A stretch of 64,000 nucleotides of DNA from a virus: the UHGV virus genome UHGV-0149956. The stretch is one strand, 5' to 3'. Numbering within the stretch: position 1 is the first letter of the stretch; each line of letters begins with the position of its first letter. Positions 1-37,923 of this stretch are shown piece by piece. Under the pieces are notes generated by a model, which was not told the DNA's origin, made no database searches, and saw only the letters and a program-made list of their open reading frames with translations. The position numbers were made by a program, and so were the translations under genes.

Positions 1-377
1 CAAAGGTTTACCCAACGTTAAAATTACCTGATTTACGCGGTGAGTTTATCCGTGGCTGGGATGATGGGCGAGGGATTGACTCTGGTCGCTCTATTTTAAG
101 CGAGCAAGGATATGCAACGGAGGATCATGCTCACGGATTACCGTCAAAATCAACCGTAGCAACTGACCGCTCAATTAATTTCTACTTTGACGAGGCATGG
201 GCTACTAGTGGTAATACGGGAGTTATCAGATGGGGGAACACAAGCGATGCAGGATTGCCAGCCCCTAATTATGGAACTTTTAAAACATATAAACAGTCCG
301 TAGCTAATTTAGGTACTGCTGGCTTAGAAACCCGCCCTCGTAATATTGCATTTAATTATATTGTGAGGGCGGATTAA
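1..377 (+). CDS. Tail-fibre C-terminal cassette, 5' truncated by window edge, opposite orientation to the main array
   Basis: Frame 3 translates to KVYPTLKLPDLRGEFIRGWDDGRGIDSGR...ETRPRNIAFNYIVRAD, stop TAA 375-377; shares the conserved N-proximal and C-terminal blocks of the minus-strand cassettes. Confidence 0.7.
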   Translation, partial: KVYPTLKLPDLRGEFIRGWDDGRGIDSGRSILSEQGYATEDHAHGLPSKSTVATDRSINFYFDEAWATSGNTGVIRWGNTSDAGLPAPNYGTFKTYKQSVANLGTAGLETRPRNIAFNYIVRAD

Positions 378-382
378 TTATA

Positions 383-994
383 TCAACTGGCTGTAGAAAG
401 TTGTTTTTCAGGCCAGTTGAGATCTGGTGCCGTGGTTAAATCCATCGCGTTCAGCTCGTCTATATAATCTAGCACGGAGTTAAGCTGCGTGGTTTCTGCC
501 TGCGTCAACTTCCGTCCAGCCCGTAATTTCAACTGAATCAGACTAATGGAATCCATCGCAGTATCAATCAATGACTGACGTTTTGTTTCTGCTGCCTCTA
601 CAGCTGCACTATGTTGAGCCTCAGTATCAACCACCCATTTCTCTCCATCCCATTTGTCGTATGGTGTTAGCGGGGCGATAGTGGTTGTATTTTCCGGATA
701 GTCACCCAACACCGTGATTTCTTCGGGATTCCCAGTGTCAATGCTATAGACAGTTTCGCCACGATGATCTGGCACATACTCCCATGAACTTAAATCCTCT
801 GAACGGAGAATCGCATAACCTGCTTTATGTGAGCCTGGAGCATCCAAACAAGAATTTGCCGGAATACCAACGCCAACAGCAAGATATTCAGTTGATGCAG
901 AAATATATTCCCGATTACCACCATCATAGTTATAAACGATAATGTTTCCTGCCTGTATGGCTATAAGTTCGCTATTTAATATCGCATTATCCAT
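383..994 (-). CDS. U: Tail fibre assembly chaperone (Tfa / U-like)
   Basis: 203-aa ORF immediately after the last fibre cassette; start overlaps the cassette stop by 1 nt (TAATG); composition typical of Tfa family. Confidence 0.65.
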   Translation of the reverse strand: MDNAILNSELIAIQAGNIIVYNYDGGNREYISASTEYLAVGVGIPANSCLDAPGSHKAGYAILRSEDLSSWEYVPDHRGETVYSIDTGNPEEITVLGDYPENTTTIAPLTPYDKWDGEKWVVDTEAQHSAAVEAAETKRQSLIDTAMDSISLIQLKLRAGRKLTQAETTQLNSVLDYIDELNAMDLTTAPDLNWPEKQLSTAS

Positions 995-1452
995 TATGCT
1001 GCTCTCACAATATAATTGAAGGCAATGTTACGTGGGCGGGTTTCATTCCCCCCAGATAACTCCGTTCTGTATTGACTGGTAAATTTACCATTAATCGCTC
1101 CTTGCCGGACGGCGTTATCTGTCGACAACAGACTATCCCCCCCTCTGTCATTTGGCACCAATACCGTGTTATCCCACGCGTCCCATGACCGAATATTATG
1201 ATAATGACTTCCTGTTAACCACCCCTGTATGCTTAAGATGACCCTTCCCGCATCCACACCTCGCCCATCATCCCAACCACGGATAAACTCACCGCGTAAA
1301 TCCGGTAATTTATTGGTGGGGTAGGCCTTTGCCAGTTTGGGATACATTTCAGAAGAAAATGCTGCACCATTGCATTTTAGCCAGCCCGTTGGTGGTGTTT
1401 CTAAGGGCCACGGAACGGGCACACCAACAGGCAGTGCAGAGCCTTCCCCCAA
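994..1452 (-). CDS. Tail-fibre C-terminal cassette 5 (receptor-binding tip module)
   Basis: Conserved ~70-aa block GEGSALPVGVPVPWP...LRGEFIRGWDDGRG, variable middle, conserved end RPRNIAFNYIVRAA; begins at TTG inside a crossover-like site. Confidence 0.6.
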   Translation of the reverse strand: MGEGSALPVGVPVPWPLETPPTGWLKCNGAAFSSEMYPKLAKAYPTNKLPDLRGEFIRGWDDGRGVDAGRVILSIQGWLTGSHYHNIRSWDAWDNTVLVPNDRGGDSLLSTDNAVRQGAINGKFTSQYRTELSGGNETRPRNIAFNYIVRAA

Positions 1453-1469
1453 ACCAACGTTTTTATGTG
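1444..1469 (-). other. Crossover-like site 5
   Basis: TTCCCCCAAACC-AA-CGTTTTTATGTG. Confidence 0.5.
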
Positions 1470-1966
1470 GCCCTTACAATGTAATTAAAAGCAACGTTGC
1501 GGGGGCGCATTGATATCCATGCCCCGGTAAAATTATCCTCTGCCGTCCTTTGAGTGCCTGTTATGGAGTTATCTGATGATGCTGGAACATAATCGCTATT
1601 ATCTCCTGCTTTAGGATTAGCAGGGTTTCCAACAGTTATAACAGAATCAGCAGTAGCATAAGCGATACCTACTTTGACATTAGTAGTCAGATCGACACCG
1701 TAATAATCCTGCAAAGCTGTACGAATAAATGTTGCAGTCTGACCACTTAGCAATGAACGCCCTGTATCAATCCCTCTCGAATCATCCCAACCACGGATAA
1801 ACTCACCGCGTAAATCAGGTAATTTTAACGTTGGGTAAACCTTTGCCAGATTTGGGTACTTTTCAGAAGAAAATGCTGCTCCGTTACATTTCAGCCACCC
1901 CGTTGGTGGTGTGGCGGAGGGCCATGGAACAGGTACACCAACGGGCAGCGCCGAGCCTTCCCCTAA
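1463..1966 (-). CDS. Tail-fibre C-terminal cassette 4 (in-frame module without start codon)
   Basis: Frame is open from the crossover-like site to stop at 1463; the codon corresponding to the TTG of other cassettes is TTA here, so the ORF track only shows 1463-1753. Confidence 0.55.
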   Translation of the reverse strand, partial: LGEGSALPVGVPVPWPSATPPTGWLKCNGAAFSSEKYPNLAKVYPTLKLPDLRGEFIRGWDDSRGIDTGRSLLSGQTATFIRTALQDYYGVDLTTNVKVGIAYATADSVITVGNPANPKAGDNSDYVPASSDNSITGTQRTAEDNFTGAWISMRPRNVAFNYIVRAT

Positions 1967-1983
1967 ACCAACGTTTTTATGCC
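1958..1983 (-). other. Crossover-like site 4
   Basis: TTCCCCTAAACC-AA-CGTTTTTATGCC. Confidence 0.5.
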
Positions 1984-2438
1984 GCCCTTACGATATAATT
2001 AAAGGCAATATTACGAGGACGGTTTTCATTAGCTGTTGGCACGACACGAGAGGCGTCGAATCCAAGGTCATCGGTTTTGCCTATATCAGTTGTGTTATTC
2101 GGCATTCTCGCAGATCGTGTTCCTGCATCATAAAAAGCCCCTCTGATTGCATCAAAAGACATGCCAATCCCGCCATCTGCGAACCCCTCAATATTTCTTA
2201 TTGCATCCCCCTGTGAAGATAATAATTGTCGCCCGGCATCCACACCACGTCCGTCATCCCAGCCACGAATAAATTCACCGCGTAAATCCGGCAATTTATT
2301 AGTAGGGTAAGCCTTTGCCAGATTTGGGTACTTTTCAGAAGAAAATGCTGCTCCGTTACATTTCAGCCACCCCGTTGGCGGAGTGGCTGAGGGCCACGGA
2401 ACAGGTACGCCAACAGGCAATGCTGAGCCTTCCCCCAA
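1977..2438 (-). CDS. Tail-fibre C-terminal cassette 3
   Basis: Same conserved N block and C-terminal RPRNIAFNYIVRAA with distinct variable core. Confidence 0.6.
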   Translation of the reverse strand: MGEGSALPVGVPVPWPSATPPTGWLKCNGAAFSSEKYPNLAKAYPTNKLPDLRGEFIRGWDDGRGVDAGRQLLSSQGDAIRNIEGFADGGIGMSFDAIRGAFYDAGTRSARMPNNTTDIGKTDDLGFDASRVVPTANENRPRNIAFNYIVRAA

Positions 2439-2455
2439 ACCAACGTTTTCATGCC
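2430..2455 (-). other. Crossover-like site 3
   Basis: TTCCCCCAAACC-AA-CGTTTTCATGCC. Confidence 0.5.
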
Positions 2456-2877
2456 GCCCTTACGATATAATTAAACGCAATGTTACGAGGACGAATGGTT
2501 ACATAATTAACCCCATCACCTCGTGAAGGCCCTGCAAATGAAAAACGGGAAAATCCTGGTTGGTTAGAAACAATTTGGTCATAGTTATTGATTGAATGAC
2601 CAGACCCAATGTCGAAATTACCTCCGTAATGAGAAAAACTTGTACCATCCTGCCCTGAAAGCAGGGTACGTCCCGCATCAATCCCGCGCCCATCATCCCA
2701 GCCACGGATAAATTCACCGCGTAAATCCGGTAATTTATTGGTGGGGTAGGCTTTTGCCAGTTTGGGATACATTTCAGAAGAAAATGCTGCACCATTGCAT
2801 TTTAGCCAGCCCGTTGGTGGTGTTTCTAAGGGCCACGGAACGGGCACACCAACAGGCAGTGCAGAGCCTTCCCCCAA
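2449..2877 (-). CDS. Tail-fibre C-terminal cassette 2
   Basis: Same conserved blocks, distinct variable core. Confidence 0.6.
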   Translation of the reverse strand: MGEGSALPVGVPVPWPLETPPTGWLKCNGAAFSSEMYPKLAKAYPTNKLPDLRGEFIRGWDDGRGIDAGRTLLSGQDGTSFSHYGGNFDIGSGHSINNYDQIVSNQPGFSRFSFAGPSRGDGVNYVTIRPRNIAFNYIVRAA

Positions 2878-2894
2878 ACCAACGTTTTTATGCC
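2869..2894 (-). other. Crossover-like site 2
   Basis: TTCCCCCAAACC-AA-CGTTTTTATGCC. Confidence 0.5.
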
Positions 2895-3355
2895 GCCCTT
2901 ACGATGTAATTAAATGCAATATTACGGGGGCGGGTTTCAGATGCTGTACGAACTGAGCGAGAGGCGTCGAATGTCCAGTTATAAGAGCCATAACCCTCAA
3001 TAATTTCCGTTTCCTTTAGGCCTGTAGATAATACTTGACCATGTTGACTAAATGGCCCTGAACTAAGTACATCTCTAAAAAGCTGAGTACGCCCGAAAGA
3101 ACCAACAATATTCTGAATTGCATCATTCTGTGCAGATAATAAATTACGGCCAGAGTCAATCCCCCGCCCGTCATCCCAGCCGCGAATAAATTCGCCCCGT
3201 AGATCCGGCAATTTATTAGTAGGGTAAACCTTTGCCAGATTTGGGTACTTTTCAGAAGAAAATGCTGCACCATTGCATTTCAGCCACCCCGTTGGCGGTG
3301 TGGCTGAGGGCCATGGAACAGGTACACCAACGGGCAGTGCCGAGCCTTCCCCCAA
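2888..3355 (-). CDS. Tail-fibre C-terminal cassette 1
   Basis: Same conserved blocks, distinct variable core; lies 10 nt after the stop of the main fibre gene. Confidence 0.6.
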   Translation of the reverse strand: MGEGSALPVGVPVPWPSATPPTGWLKCNGAAFSSEKYPNLAKVYPTNKLPDLRGEFIRGWDDGRGIDSGRNLLSAQNDAIQNIVGSFGRTQLFRDVLSSGPFSQHGQVLSTGLKETEIIEGYGSYNWTFDASRSVRTASETRPRNIAFNYIVRAA

Positions 3356-3372
3356 ACCAACGTTTTTATGCC
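3347..3372 (-). other. Crossover-like site 1
   Basis: TTCCCCCAAACC-AA-CGTTTTTATGCC, direct repeat of site 0 left half and core; spans stop of S and start of cassette 1. Confidence 0.5.
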
Positions 3373-5390
3373 GCCCTTACGATGTAATTAAATGCAACGT
3401 TGCGAGGGCGAGTTTCTGTACCTACATTTCCACTAATTTCACCATAACGTTTAACACTACGAGAGCTAATAGCTCGTAGTGAGGAAGGCACCTTATGACC
3501 GGGTTCGTCCGTTTTAACTATTCCCCCGTCACCGTATGTAGCTAGTATTCCTGGATTTACGCCTTCCCGTGCACTTCCTGCGGCGAGTCCGTCCCCTGTC
3601 CATAATTCCATATAGTGTGCATGGTCCAAAATTGTGTGTGGCTGCCAATTAAGCAAAGCGCGGCCAGCATCCACCCCGCGCCCATCATCCCAGCCACGGA
3701 TAAATTCACCGCGTAAATCAGGTAATTTTAACGTTGGGTAAACCTTTGCCAGATTTGGGTACTTTTCAGAAGAAAATGCTGCACCATTGCATTTCAGCCA
3801 CCCCGTTGGCGGTGTGGCTGAGGGCCATGGAATAGGTACACCAACGGGCAGCGCCGAGCCTTCCCCTAAACCAAGGTAATCAAGAACGCTCTGAATACTG
3901 GTCTTACCAAGAATGGCGCGTCCAACACTTGTCAATGCAGTTAACGCGGCACGATCAACACCTGTGAAATAAGGGAGTTTATCTGCTGCTGTAGCTAGTG
4001 CCGCTAGAGCAGTGAGCGTAGCGTCTGCCGCTTGCTTTCCATTAGCCAAATCATATGCAGCCTTGACAGCTTTCGGTGTGGCGGCCAGCACTTCAGACGT
4101 GCTGTTAGTGGCACTACTGAGCTGAGTGATGCCTTTCGCTGTCAATGAAGCTGTTGGCACACCAGTGATCTGATTCCAGGGATGTGTATGACTGGATGGT
4201 GCCTTTCCGGCTGCTAGATCGTATGCAGCTTTAACCGCTTTTGGAGTTGCAGCTAATGTTTCAGAAGTGCTGTTGGTGTCGCTACTGAGCTGAACTATCC
4301 CTTTTTGTGTCGTGGTTGCATCCTGGGCTGTATACTTCCCGTTAGCCAAATCATATGCAGCCTTGACAGCTTTCGGTGTGGCGGCCAGCACTTCGGACGT
4401 ACTGTTAGTGGCACTACTGAGCTGAGTGATGCCTTTCGCTGTCAATGAAGCTGTTGGCACACCAGTGATCTGATTCCAGGGATGTGTATGACTGGATGGT
4501 GCCTTTCCGGCTGCTAGATCGTATGCAGCTTTAACCGCTTTTGGAGTTGCAGCTAATGTTTCAGAAGTGCTGTTGGTGTCGCTACTGAGCTGAACTATCC
4601 CTTTTTGTGTCGTGGTTGCATCCTGGGCTGTATACTTCCCGTTAGCCAAATCATATGCAGCCTTGACAGCTTTCGGTGTGGCGGCCAGCACTTCGGACGT
4701 ACTGTTAGTGGCACTACTGAGCTGAACTAATCCCTTTTGCGTTGTGCTTGCATCCTGCGCCGTATATTTGCTTTTCGCCAGATCGTAGGCTTTTTTAACT
4801 GCCAGCGAACTCGCAGCAACATCACTTCTGGTACTGGTTACAGAGTCTGAAATATCAATGCCGATCGTGCGGTTGATACGCTCGGATGTATCAATCATCT
4901 CTTGAGTAATGGTAGATACGCCAGCAGGGATATTCACCGTACAAACCAGCAGTTCCCCATCACCTAACTGATATGAATCGGTATAGGTTCTGGCAACAAA
5001 TTCAGCTGCATGAATATGTGACGCGGTATTCACCTGATAGGTATCTTCTCCAAGAAGGTATCTTCCCTTCAGCACAATTGCATATTTCTTGCCTGCGTTA
5101 AGTGCAAGAGAGATATCCTTACGATGCTGAATAGTTACCTGGTAGAATTCACCAATATCCACTGACGCCGCGCCAGCGGTTTTATCTCCATCCACTGAGG
5201 TGATTAACAGGTTCATTCCACCGCCAGGCTTAGGCAAGAAACCAGCATAAAATCCCGGGTCAACAATTCCCCTGAATTTTCGGTTTAGAGCGGCTGACAG
5301 ATATGGTTCGTGGTATTGCACATCAGCCACCAGAGCCAACGACTCGGGTGATGGGTAAGTAACCGATGTAACAACTGTAACGTCATTCAT
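3366..5390 (-). CDS. S: Tail fibre protein (S-like) with ~30-aa repeats and expressed C-terminal tip
   Basis: ATG at 5390 with AAGGA 5-8 nt upstream; internal repeats TAQDA-TTQKG-VQLSS-TNSTSE-LAATPKAVKAAYDLA; C-terminal 150 aa homologous to the downstream cassettes. Confidence 0.8.
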   Translation of the reverse strand: MNDVTVVTSVTYPSPESLALVADVQYHEPYLSAALNRKFRGIVDPGFYAGFLPKPGGGMNLLITSVDGDKTAGAASVDIGEFYQVTIQHRKDISLALNAGKKYAIVLKGRYLLGEDTYQVNTASHIHAAEFVARTYTDSYQLGDGELLVCTVNIPAGVSTITQEMIDTSERINRTIGIDISDSVTSTRSDVAASSLAVKKAYDLAKSKYTAQDASTTQKGLVQLSSATNSTSEVLAATPKAVKAAYDLANGKYTAQDATTTQKGIVQLSSDTNSTSETLAATPKAVKAAYDLAAGKAPSSHTHPWNQITGVPTASLTAKGITQLSSATNSTSEVLAATPKAVKAAYDLANGKYTAQDATTTQKGIVQLSSDTNSTSETLAATPKAVKAAYDLAAGKAPSSHTHPWNQITGVPTASLTAKGITQLSSATNSTSEVLAATPKAVKAAYDLANGKQAADATLTALAALATAADKLPYFTGVDRAALTALTSVGRAILGKTSIQSVLDYLGLGEGSALPVGVPIPWPSATPPTGWLKCNGAAFSSEKYPNLAKVYPTLKLPDLRGEFIRGWDDGRGVDAGRALLNWQPHTILDHAHYMELWTGDGLAAGSAREGVNPGILATYGDGGIVKTDEPGHKVPSSLRAISSRSVKRYGEISGNVGTETRPRNVAFNYIVRAA
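3861..3886 (-). other. Crossover-like site 0 (Din/invertase-family-like 26-mer) at constant/variable junction of S
   Basis: TTCCCCTAAACC-AA-GGTAATCAAGAA; resembles hix/gix/cix sites as recalled (12-bp half sites flanking a 2-bp AA core). Confidence 0.55.
4021..4725. repeat. Near-perfect 300-bp tandem repeat (2.3 copies) inside the fibre gene
   Basis: Sequence lines starting at 4321 and 4621 are identical, and lines 4141/4441, 4201/4501, 4261/4561 are identical; period exactly 300 bp. Confidence 0.9.
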
Positions 5391-5401
5391 CAAGCATATC
5401 C

Positions 5402-5836
5402 TTATGCTGTAGTCGAGTTTATGGCCATAACTGCGGTATATGTTTTGCCCACATACAGCGAGTCTTCTTGGACACAAATAATGGCGATTGGCTTATTCTC
5501 GTTATCCAGAACAACCAGAGTGTTGAATGGGTAGTTTTTCCCTTCCTGCAACTGACTTTGATCAAGGTCCATTCGGACAGTAATTATCCCGCCTGAGTAG
5601 GTTGGGACGAGGTTGATGGTGCAAAATTGACTGGTCAGTTCTGCCAGATCGAAAGCCTTTGGCAGTTCTCCAATCTCATAAGTGCCATCTCCTTTCTTAG
5701 TAACCAGTGAACTGGTACCGAAAACGGCCTTGCTGATTAAAAATCGAGAGCCTTTGTTAATGGACGATTCAGCGCGCCGCTGATAGTAATAGTCCAACAA
5801 CTGACTCTTATAGAGGTTTGTTGAGACGTCAGACAT
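5402..5836 (-). CDS. Tail fibre-associated structural protein (R-like)
   Basis: 144-aa ORF ending 12 nt upstream of S start; operon position. Confidence 0.45.
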   Translation of the reverse strand: MSDVSTNLYKSQLLDYYYQRRAESSINKGSRFLISKAVFGTSSLVTKKGDGTYEIGELPKAFDLAELTSQFCTINLVPTYSGGIITVRMDLDQSQLQEGKNYPFNTLVVLDNENKPIAIICVQEDSLYVGKTYTAVMAINSTTA

Positions 5837-5914
5837 GATTTTCCCTAATCAATGTTGTGAAGCCTCATTGTAAGATAAGTAACTTGTCACCCCGCCCTGC
5901 GGACGGGGTGATTG

Positions 5915-6754
5915 TCACGCATCGCTATCCAACAGCAAATCATCTGCGCGGGTGCGATCAAACGTAGGCGTTGCTTTCACAATAGTGCCGCCCGGCGTTG
6001 CAGTGATCGGGGCGTTAATCGACGTAACTTCAGTAAGCGAAGTTGTATCCGAAGTTTCAAACCAGCAGAATGCTTTTTCGGTATCAGAAATCTCATTCAA
6101 AGTGATCATGTCGGCCTGTTCATTTACAACAACCGACAAATAGAGCGTAAGCCCATCAAACACTATATGCAGTGGCAGTAGAGGCTTTACGAACTGATTA
6201 AACTTTCTGAGAATTTCTTCTGTAATTGCGGACTGATCTATCGTTCCAGTAATACCCATTGTCCGGGCCAAGTCGTTTATGGGAATACTGATCATTCCTC
6301 TGGAAGTCAGAAACATCTCGCCGAATGTGCCGCCGGTGGTTTCCAGTGTGCTTTCTGGAATCAGGACCGTGCCATAGGGATGACGTTCAAAGTCCACCGG
6401 AGCATATATGGGATCCCATAAAACCGATATACCGTTAAATTCGCGATAAATTGTCTGGTTTATAGGGCGTTCAGTACCCTTAAAATGGATCTCATCAAAC
6501 CGCTGTTGTAACAACATCGGAACGGAAGATGAATTCGACGTTCTGATAGTAAAAAACTGGCCAAGTTCATTTGTCCTAGTCTCCAGATCCTCCTTGCTCA
6601 TGGAGAAAATAGACTTCCGGTTGGTAATTCGCTCCAACCATGGGTCAACAAAGGTGTCCATCATTGACTGAACCAAATCAGCCAATGATTTATAAAGTAA
6701 TGACTTTTGCTTAGCTGATGTAAGCCGGTTATTAAACCAGGAACGCTGCATCAC
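5915..6754 (-). CDS. Virion structural protein, probable baseplate component
   Basis: 279-aa ORF, ATGA overlap with upstream gene; position in baseplate/fibre operon. Confidence 0.4.
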   Translation of the reverse strand: MMQRSWFNNRLTSAKQKSLLYKSLADLVQSMMDTFVDPWLERITNRKSIFSMSKEDLETRTNELGQFFTIRTSNSSSVPMLLQQRFDEIHFKGTERPINQTIYREFNGISVLWDPIYAPVDFERHPYGTVLIPESTLETTGGTFGEMFLTSRGMISIPINDLARTMGITGTIDQSAITEEILRKFNQFVKPLLPLHIVFDGLTLYLSVVVNEQADMITLNEISDTEKAFCWFETSDTTSLTEVTSINAPITATPGGTIVKATPTFDRTRADDLLLDSDA

Positions 6755-36253: not shown

Positions 36254-36329
36254 GATGGTGTAGCTCAGCGGTTAGAGCGGTTGACTGTTAATCAACGGGT
36301 CGATGGTTCAAATCCATCCACCATCGCCA
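36254..36329 (+). tRNA. tRNA-Asn (anticodon GTT)
   Basis: Cloverleaf built by hand: acceptor GATGGTG/CACCATC, D-stem GCTC/GAGC, anticodon loop CTGTTAA, T-arm GATGG-TTCAAAT-CCATC, 3' GCCA. Confidence 0.85.
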
Positions 36330-36331
36330 AT

Positions 36332-36407
36332 GCCGGTTTAGCTCAGTTGGTAGAGCGCCTGCCTTGTAAGCAGGATGTCAGCGGTTCGAGTCCGTTAATC
36401 GGCACCA
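36332..36407 (+). tRNA. tRNA-Thr (anticodon TGT)
   Basis: Acceptor GCCGGTT/AATCGGC, anticodon stem CCTGC/GCAGG with loop CTTGTAA, T-loop TTCGAGT, 3' ACCA. Confidence 0.85.
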
Positions 36408-37847: not shown

Positions 37848-37923
37848 GGCCCTTTAGCTCAGTGGTTAGAGCTGGCGACTCATAATCGCACGGTCACCGG
37901 TTCAAGTCCGGTAGGGGCCACCA
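37848..37923 (+). tRNA. tRNA-Ile2-like (anticodon CAT; could be read as Met)
   Basis: Close to E. coli ileX as recalled: GGCCCTT acceptor, anticodon loop CTCATAA, T-arm ACCGG-TTCAAGT-CCGGT, 3' ACCA. Confidence 0.8.

What the first reader, a model, noticed from the sequence alone, without database searches (positions are those of the whole stretch)
4021..4725. Near-identical 300-bp tandem duplication inside the fibre shaft
Two full copies and one partial copy of a 300-bp unit are almost base-for-base identical, encoding reiterated ~30-aa shaft repeats. Such perfect identity implies very recent expansion or ongoing concerted evolution; the copy number probably varies between relatives and changes fibre length. 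It is also an assembly hazard.
Basis: seen in the sequence. Interest (0 to 1): 0.45.

Follow-up and report, generated by a model that had tools for sequence, protein, structure and literature searches.

The report
Expandable shaft repeat in P1-type tail fibre
A real, in-frame 300-base tandem duplication sits in the shaft of the tail-fibre gene of a P1/p15B-like phage-plasmid; relatives carry none to six or more copies, so it is a common, already recognised kind of length variation and not a new mechanism.

Summary
Window 4035-4725 holds 2.3 copies of a 300-bp unit: 296/300 identical between the full copies, 91/91 for the partial one. It lies on the minus strand in the constant (Sc) part of tail-fibre gene S (3366-5390) of a P1-like phage-plasmid. 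The protein matches the p15B Sc/SvN protein except for two 44-aa modules.

Each unit encodes two Phage_fiber_2 modules, A (44 aa) and B (56 aa, with an SSHTHPW motif). The shaft reads A0-[A-B]x2-linker-crossover site-receptor-binding cassette. The "partial copy" is the 3' tail of A0, which is identical to the tail of B1.

SNP patterns in the window and six relatives show that internal B tails are A0-like at the 3' end. Only the last B keeps its own variants. This is the signature of unequal crossover or slippage between these tails.

Relatives with nearly identical N-termini carry 0 to 6 or more units, in 23 different module strings. Units are homogeneous within an array and differ between arrays. 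Many short-read contigs break here.

The effect on fibre length and host reach is inferred. The copy number in this assembly is a lower bound.

The verdict is an ordinary, well-explained feature of modest interest.

The parts
3366..5390 (-). Tail-fibre gene S (674 aa) of a P1/p15B-like phage-plasmid, made of the constant part Sc plus the currently expressed variable cassette.
   Evidence: ORF. Pfam Phage_fiber_2 (6 stretches, E=1e-108) and Collar. 95.5% nt identity to P1 S/R over the 5' 776 nt. 653 identical residues with p15B Sc/SvN (P0102), the only gaps being two 44-aa modules.
4770..5390 (-). N-terminal constant region (aa 1-207). It ends with a 12-aa partial module (LAVKKAYDLAKS, 4770-4805), equivalent to P1 'repeated element a0'.
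4638..4769 (-). Module A0 (44 aa), equivalent to P1 'repeated element a1'.
4338..4637 (-). Unit 1, made of module A1 (4506-4637, 44 aa) and module B1 (4338-4505, 56 aa, with SSHTHPWNQITG). This is the internal, 'new' unit, and its B tail is entirely A0-like.
4038..4337 (-). Unit 2, made of module A2 (4206-4337) and module B2 (4038-4205). This is the last unit. Its tail carries 4 private synonymous variants, and it is 1 nt different from the single unit of one-copy relatives.
3873..4037 (-). Linker (KQAADATLTALAALATAADKLPYFTG...SVLDYL) between the repeat array and the crossover site.
3861..3886 (-). Putative invertase crossover site at the Sc/Sv junction (TTCTTGATTACC TT GGTTTAGGGGAA). It marks the end of the constant part.
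   Evidence: The right half is shared with the five cassette-boundary sites. No test of recombination was possible.
3366..3860 (-). Currently expressed receptor-binding cassette (Collar domain plus variable tip, ending NYIVRAA*).
   Evidence: It matches the p15B SvN cassette.
994..3353 (-). Context: five intact silent alternative cassettes (2888-3353, 2449-2875, 1977-2436, 1463-1964, 994-1450). Each is preceded by the core AAACCAACGTTT.
383..994 (-). Context: tail-fibre assembly protein (Caudo_TAP).
1..377 (+). Context: 3' part of an oppositely oriented cassette, cut by the window edge.

Best explanation
The array is a genuine, recent, in-frame tandem duplication of a 300-bp double module (A + B, 100 aa) in the constant shaft region of the P1/p15B-type tail-fibre gene S. 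The one-unit state A0-A-B already contains an 88-91-bp direct repeat at 300-bp spacing, because the 3' tails of A0 and B are the same. Unequal homologous recombination, or replication slippage, between these tails adds or removes whole 300-bp units without disturbing the reading frame. Repeated rounds, plus gene conversion, keep the units of one array nearly identical while arrays in different plasmids drift or are replaced. Each unit adds 100 residues per chain to the trimeric shaft. It therefore probably lengthens the fibre by several nanometres, whichever alternative tip the neighbouring inversion system has placed on the end. Shown here: the anatomy, the junction signature, the copy-number polymorphism and the within-array homogeneity. 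Inferred: the recombination pathway, the change in fibre length and any effect on adsorption or host range.
For: Array and identity. Gene identity. Module map A0-A-B-A-B-linker. Junction signature: in the window B1's tail equals A0's tail (91/91), while B2 carries private variants at tail positions 27, 33, 87 and 90. In p1303_95, pMB9880_2 and L003 the internal B tails are chimeric, B-like at positions 27 and 33 and A0-like ('CC' at 78-79) at the 3' end. In p1303_95 and pMB9880_2 the last B, which abuts the KQAAD linker, lacks CC and carries T87/A90; in L003 the array is followed by a further A module and its last B is also A0-like. The single unit of one-copy plasmids (pHNSHP24, pF1140-3) differs by 1 nt from the window's last unit and by 3 nt from its internal unit. 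Recency: there are 0 synonymous differences between A1 and A2, against 24/44 codons differing synonymously between A0 and A1. Polymorphism: 92 protein clusters with 2 or fewer differences in the N-terminal 206 aa show 23 different module strings, with 1 to 6 or more units. DNA loci with 0-2 differences in the first 620 nt carry 1, 2 or 5 units. Homogenisation: the five units of CP063155 are 0-1 nt apart but 9-13 nt from the window's units. A divergent lineage (L090) has five units, four of them identical, about 97% identical to the window's although its S N-terminus is unrelated at DNA level. Independent complete genomes carry exactly the same two-unit arrangement, colinear over 1201 nt (PEC399, USDA5905, VTB96937v, p1303_95), and others carry one unit.
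Against: No reads are available, so the copy number in this particular assembly cannot be verified. Two units is also what a short-read graph would output for any array of two or more units in which internal units are identical and only the last differs. In the window the switch to A0-like sequence must lie within the first ~27 nt of the shared tail or be due to later conversion, so simple RecA crossover is not the only possible route. The single-sequence AlphaFold model was unusable (pLDDT 38.5), and no solved structure covers these modules beyond one Mu gpS segment. The length effect is therefore not demonstrated. No data here link copy number to host or phenotype.
Confidence: 0.85

Rival explanations
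1. Assembly artefact. Either the duplication was created by the assembler, or (the more realistic form) the true array has a different number of units, probably more, and was collapsed to two.
For: Twelve of 17 closely related IMG/VR contigs end inside S, six of them at or in the array. Complete contigs from those draft assemblies show 0-2 units, whereas the top-scoring NCBI proteins, many from ~95-kb plasmid-sized contigs, mostly show 3-4. That comparison is biased, because the protein list is ranked by score. Internal units are identical in long arrays, so a de Bruijn loop traversed once yields exactly two units.
Against: The two copies differ at four positions, in a pattern that matches the biology seen in independent plasmids, so the B-head to A0-like-tail junction must exist in the data. 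At least four independent complete E. coli genomes carry the same two-unit arrangement. A spurious duplication would give identical copies.
Confidence: 0.12
2. An ancient duplication whose copies stay alike because the shaft peptide is under strong purifying selection.
For: The encoded modules are highly conserved at protein level across many tail fibres.
Against: Selection on the peptide does not preserve synonymous sites. A0 and A1 share 39/44 residues, yet 24 codons differ synonymously. A1 and A2 differ at none, and B1 and B2 at 4. Copy number differs between backbones that are otherwise 0-2 nt apart over 620 nt.
Confidence: 0.02
3. A programmed diversification device: a template/variable repeat pair of a diversity-generating retroelement, or extra target sites of the Min-type invertase.
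For: The repeat lies in a host-range gene next to a site-specific inversion system.
Against: The four mismatches are all synonymous transitions and are not adenine-specific. The copies are adjacent and in frame within one shaft, not a tip domain. No crossover core occurs inside 4035-4725. The rest of the window is about 98% P1-like backbone. That the P1 backbone has no reverse transcriptase is my own knowledge; I did not scan every ORF.
Confidence: 0.01

Closest known systems
Plasmid p15B tail-fibre protein Sc/SvN (UniProt Q47430; Min inversion region; Sandmeier, Iida & Arber 1992, J Bacteriol 174:3936, citation seen, paper not readable here)
   Same: 653 residues are identical. The N-terminus, the A and B modules, the linker, the crossover junction (DYL|GLGEGS) and the expressed cassette are all the same. 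The shaft also contains amplified modules.
   Different: The p15B module string is A-A-B-A'-A-B-A', a 144-aa (432-bp) period. The window's string is A-A-B-A-B, a 100-aa (300-bp) period, so p15B has two extra 44-aa modules.
Phage P1 gene S constant part, with annotated repeated elements a0, a1, b1 and b2 (GenBank M81956 and NC_005856)
   Same: The operon position is the same (R-S-invertible cassettes). The first 776 nt are 95.5% identical. P1's a0/a1 correspond to the window's partial module and A0, shifted by one codon. P1 also has a two-copy tandem repeat directly after a1.
   Different: P1's repeat unit (b1/b2, 222 bp) is a different sequence and is old, with 139/222 identical. P1 lacks the A-B units and has a two-state Cin C-segment, not the multi-cassette array seen here.
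Pfam PF03406 Phage_fiber_2 repeats in lambda Stf, Rac StfR and EHEC prophage fibres
   Same: The repeat family is the same, and it occurs in variable numbers in side tail fibres.
   Different: Those arrays are generally diverged copies within different fibre architectures. Here the copies are near-identical at DNA level and polymorphic between nearly identical backbones.
Adenovirus fibre shaft pseudo-repeats (own knowledge, analogy only)
   Same: The number of shaft repeats differs between relatives, sets fibre length and leaves the receptor-binding knob unchanged.
   Different: The fold, repeat length (about 15 aa) and virus are unrelated. There is no homology.

Membership tests
P1/p15B tail-fibre gene S, constant part Sc | Position in the operon: downstream of R and gene 16, upstream of the alternative 3' cassettes and the tail-fibre assembly gene. 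| tested here: met
   The P1 map is. Sibling locus L089 has gp16, R, S, Collar cassettes, Tfa and invertase.
P1/p15B tail-fibre gene S, constant part Sc | N-terminal sequence homologous to gpS of P1 and p15B. | tested here: met
   95.5% nt identity to P1. Residues 1-322 are identical to p15B Sc/SvN.
P1/p15B tail-fibre gene S, constant part Sc | Contains the 'a'-type repeated element (132 bp) followed by amplified elements. | tested here: met
   A0 coincides with the annotated a1, with 102/132 nt identical to P1. The tandem A-B units follow it.
Pfam PF03406 Phage_fiber_2 repeat | Score above the curated gathering threshold, with multiple repeat stretches. | tested here: met
   355 bits against a cut-off of 22, with six stretches.
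Min/Cin/Gin/Pin-type invertible tail-fibre switch (context, not the repeat itself) | Crossover sites at the constant/variable junction and at each alternative cassette. | tested here: met
   The identical core AAACCAACGTTT lies at all five cassette boundaries, and a related site lies at the expressed junction.
Min/Cin/Gin/Pin-type invertible tail-fibre switch (context, not the repeat itself) | Adjacent serine invertase gene and oppositely oriented cassettes. | tested here: inconclusive
   One + strand cassette fragment lies at 1-377. The invertase would lie beyond the window edge. It is present in sibling L089 as Resolvase + HTH_7.
Diversity-generating retroelement (template/variable repeat) | Adenine-specific mismatches between the repeats, and a nearby reverse transcriptase. 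| tested here: not met
   The mismatches are four synonymous transitions, not adenine-specific. The backbone is P1-like. Not every ORF was scanned for a reverse transcriptase.
Classical contingency locus (phase variation by repeat slippage) | A change in repeat number switches the gene on or off by frameshift or promoter spacing. | tested here: not met
   The unit is 300 bp (modules of 132 and 168 bp), so every copy number keeps the frame. All complete relatives remain open. The exceptions are two phage records whose frameshifts lie inside a module, not in the repeat number.

The most novel reading that the evidence does not exclude
The A-B array may act as a fast-switching 'length dial'. On this reading, recombination changes the number of 100-aa shaft units at a rate far above point mutation. 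A single phage-plasmid lineage would then continually produce virions with different fibre reach, tuned to O-antigen or capsule depth. That would be a second, orthogonal host-range variation system working alongside the Min tip-swapping inversions. The evidence does not exclude it: backbones 0-2 nt apart over 620 nt carry 1, 2 or 5 units, and there are 23 module strings among near-identical N-termini. Nothing here shows selection on length or within-population heterogeneity.
Probability: 0.15. Interest if true: 0.55.

Novelty: new member of a known kind. Interest (0 to 1): 0.25.

Why it matters
For annotation and assembly, the S gene of P1-like phage-plasmids is widespread, and these elements often carry resistance genes. 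The gene cannot be trusted from short reads, because copy number may be collapsed and contigs break at the array. Comparisons of "tail fibre protein" lengths are therefore partly technical.

For phage biology and engineering, the array is a natural, frame-preserving module for changing shaft length without touching the baseplate-binding end or the receptor-binding tip. That is convenient for testing how fibre reach affects adsorption to smooth or encapsulated hosts.

It does not reveal a new mechanism. Amplified repeated elements in this very gene were already annotated for P1, and p15B carries an amplified array of the same modules.

Tried and rejected
- **Structure prediction.** AlphaFold2 single-sequence prediction of aa 190-470 (A0 to the linker) gave mean pLDDT 38.5 and pTM 0.22. 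That is too poor for fold search or length estimation. I used only the crude pattern of strands followed by an 11-residue helix per module, and drew no conclusion from it.
- **Solved structures.** A sequence search found the Collar/tip region (T4 gp37, a short tail fibre) and one 65-residue stretch of Mu gpS aligned to A0. Nothing covers an A-B unit.
- **Literature.** Searches for descriptions of this copy-number polymorphism found only general statements on P1-like tail-fibre variability and on Pf2 domains of unknown structure. The key 1992 paper and the P1 genome paper are not held, so their content is cited from GenBank annotations and my own recollection.
- **Missing locus.** The look-up of encoding contigs had no record for the six-unit protein P0007.
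- **Rejected readings.** I rejected a diversity-generating retroelement pair, invertase target sites inside the array, a Chi-stimulated hotspot (no Chi site in the gene), and an alternative gene on the + strand (only ORFs of 47 aa or fewer, repeating with the unit).
- **Search not run.** I ran no further search on an unbiased copy-number distribution. The listed distribution (mostly 3-4 units) is biased towards high copy number, because hits are ranked by summed score.

Full report
**1. Observation**

Tandem Repeats Finder reports a single array at 4035-4725 with period 300, 2.3 copies, 98% matches and no indels. The repeat finder gives 4035-4334 and 4335-4634 at 99%. A base-by-base comparison finds four mismatches in 300 between the full copies and none in the 91-nt partial copy. 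Similarity vanishes immediately outside the array.

**2. What the sequence is**

- The array lies on the minus strand inside ORF 3366-5390, 674 aa from the first ATG.
- Pfam gives Phage_fiber_2 (six stretches, E=1e-108) and a Collar domain. Downstream lie several Collar-domain segments and a tail-fibre assembly protein. Upstream lies a baseplate J/gp6-like protein.
- The 5' 776 nt and the upstream gene match the S and R genes of phage P1 and P7 at 95-96%.
- The rest of the window is about 98% identical to P1-like phages over 90-100% of its length, with three clustered tRNA genes.
- Hundreds of ~95-kb E. coli, Salmonella and Klebsiella plasmids share the gene.
- The protein is identical to the p15B Sc/SvN protein except for a few substitutions and two 44-aa segments present only in p15B.

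The window is therefore a P1/p15B-type phage-plasmid, and the repeat is in the constant (Sc) shaft part of tail-fibre gene S.

**3. Anatomy**

In gene orientation the shaft reads as follows:

| Element | Window coordinates | Notes |
|---|---|---|
| Partial module | 4770-4805 | LAVKKAYDLAKS |
| A0 | 4638-4769 | 44 aa |
| A1 | 4506-4637 | 44 aa |
| B1 | 4338-4505 | 56 aa, with SSHTHPWNQITG |
| A2 | 4206-4337 | 44 aa |
| B2 | 4038-4205 | 56 aa |
| Linker | 3873-4037 | 55 aa |
| Crossover-like site | about 3861-3886 | |
| Expressed Collar cassette | 3366-3860 | |

The partial module and A0 correspond to the elements annotated a0 and a1 in the P1 GenBank records. No ORF longer than 47 aa lies on the other strand.

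**4. Age of the duplication**

A0 and A1 share 39 of 44 residues, yet 24 of their codons differ synonymously. A1 and A2 are identical (132/132). B1 and B2 differ at four synonymous sites. The identity is therefore not maintained by selection on the peptide. The copies are young or are being homogenised.

**5. How it arose**

- The one-unit state A0-A-B, seen in pHNSHP24, pF1140-3 and two IMG/VR contigs, already has a direct repeat of about 90 nt at 300-nt spacing, formed by the tails of A0 and B.
- In two-unit plasmids the internal B tail is chimeric or fully A0-like. In p1303_95 and pMB9880_2 it is B-like at tail positions 27 and 33 and A0-like ("CC" at 78-79) at the 3' end. In the window it is A0-like throughout.
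- Where the array is followed by the KQAAD linker, the last B carries T87/A90, as it does in the one-unit plasmids.
- The window's last unit differs from the single unit of one-copy plasmids by 1 nt, and its internal unit by 3 nt.

This is the pattern expected from unequal crossover, or slippage, between the A0 and B tails. The pathway itself is inferred. No Chi site is present.

**6. Variation among relatives**

- Among the 120 best protein clusters, the 100-aa unit occurs 0-7 times by a lenient count that also picks up offset partial matches in B-B strings. Most proteins have 3 or 4.
- Parsed into modules, 37 different strings occur, including A(AB)n with n up to 6 and irregular strings with B-B or A-A-B periods.
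- 92 clusters with 2 or fewer differences in the N-terminal 206 residues show 23 different strings. This list is ranked by summed score and so favours high copy number.
- At DNA level, loci 0-2 nt apart in the first 620 nt carry 1, 2 or 5 units.
- Complete E. coli genomes include at least four with exactly the window's two-unit arrangement, and several with one unit.
- Two phage genomes (vB_EcoM-673R5 and vB_EcoM-813R1) also differ in copy number, and their S genes are broken by frameshifts inside a B module.

**7. Homogenisation and exchange**

The five units of plasmid CP063155 are 0-1 nt apart but 9-13 nt from the window's units. Its N-terminal 620 nt differ from the window's by only 2 nt. 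A divergent P1-like lineage (L090) has an S N-terminus with no DNA similarity to the window's. It nevertheless carries five units about 97% identical to the window's, four of them identical to each other and all carrying the same SNHIH variant. Arrays are thus amplified or homogenised locally, and the unit moves between lineages.

**8. Assembly hazard**

Of 17 IMG/VR contigs with 98.7% or more identity in the 5' part of S, 12 end inside the gene. Six end at or within the A-B array and six at or just after the crossover site. Internal units are identical in long arrays and only the last unit is distinct. A short-read graph traversed minimally would therefore give exactly two units for any true number of two or more. 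The window's count should be read as a lower bound. The existence of the duplication junction is not in doubt, given the four distinguishing SNPs and the independent two-unit genomes.

**9. Function**

Copy-number changes preserve the frame, the baseplate-proximal N-terminus and the tip. The only predictable consequence is a longer or shorter trimeric shaft, by 100 residues per chain per unit.

I could not quantify this. The single-sequence model was unusable. Solved structures cover only the Collar/tip region and one Mu gpS segment aligned to A0. Literature on Pf2 domains says little about their structure.

From the ratio of residues to length in T4 long tail fibres (my own knowledge), a few nanometres per unit is plausible. 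Any effect on adsorption through O-antigen or capsule is speculation.

**10. Comparison with what is known**

Amplified repeated elements in this gene are annotated in the P1 records (a0, a1, b1, b2). From my recollection of the abstract, Sandmeier, Iida & Arber (1992) discussed them for P1 and p15B. The citation is confirmed, but the paper is not held.

P1's own b1/b2 pair is a different sequence and is old, with 139/222 identical. p15B has the same A and B modules in a 144-aa period.

The window is thus another allele of a known, plastic shaft. I found no paper describing the population-wide copy-number polymorphism or the junction signature. It follows from ordinary recombination between repeats and would not surprise a specialist.

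**11. Surroundings**

Downstream of S lie five intact silent cassettes in the same orientation. Each begins GEGSALPVGVP and ends NYIVRAA*, and each is preceded by the identical core AAACCAACGTTT. A tail-fibre assembly gene follows, then a cassette on the opposite strand that is cut by the window edge. A sibling plasmid shows the full layout, ending in a serine invertase gene. This is the p15B Min-type multiple-inversion host-range switch. The repeat array sits in the part shared by all tips.

**12. Verdict**

The feature is a new member of a known kind, with interest 0.25.

Noticed in passing
window 1-3365 (sites at 1451, 1965, 2437, 2876, 3354; expressed junction about 3861-3886): This is a Min/p15B-like multiple-inversion region. 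Five intact silent receptor-binding cassettes are co-oriented with S (2888-3353, 2449-2875, 1977-2436, 1463-1964, 994-1450). A tail-fibre assembly gene follows at 383-994, and a + strand cassette fragment at 1-377 is cut by the window edge. That gives at least seven alternative tips, each preceded by the identical core AAACCAACGTTT. The invertase gene is outside the window.
   Followed up: partly
window 3147-3363 and 3661-3877: A 217-nt direct repeat at 90% identity forms the conserved Collar-encoding 5' part of the expressed cassette and of the first silent cassette. Such co-oriented homology could also allow cassette deletion or replacement by homologous recombination, independent of the invertase.
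   Followed up: no
L087 (ON470615.2) and L088 (ON470617.2), S gene: In both published phage genomes the S gene is interrupted by a frameshift inside a B module, just after KAPSSHTHP, and is annotated as 'fragments'. This is either sequencing error in the repeat or genuinely defective fibres.
   Followed up: partly
L004 (IMGVR_UViG_3300030379_000127), S gene end: The constant part runs into non-cassette sequence exactly at the crossover site (…SVLDYLPFLLKHP*). This is either an unusual inversion isomer or a mis-join at the invertible region.
   Followed up: no
L090 (PFXW01000019.1) 4001-6736: A divergent P1-like lineage has an S N-terminus, R and gene 16 with little or no DNA similarity to the window. 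It nevertheless carries five copies of the same 300-bp unit at about 97% identity, all with an SNHIH variant. This indicates horizontal exchange of the shaft module.
   Followed up: partly
L005-L019 (IMG/VR contigs): Twelve of 17 closely related contigs terminate inside S, either at the start of the A-B array or at the crossover site. Draft assemblies systematically lose or truncate this gene.
   Followed up: yes
L002 (P1 NC_005856) 5490-5933: P1's annotated tandem elements b1/b2 (222 bp each) are only 139/222 identical. This is an old duplication at the position where the window has its young A-B array.
   Followed up: yes
window 36254-36407 and 37848-37923: Three tRNA genes (Asn-GTT, Thr-TGT and a CAT-anticodon tRNA) lie on the + strand, in a backbone that is otherwise about 98% P1-like.
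   Followed up: no
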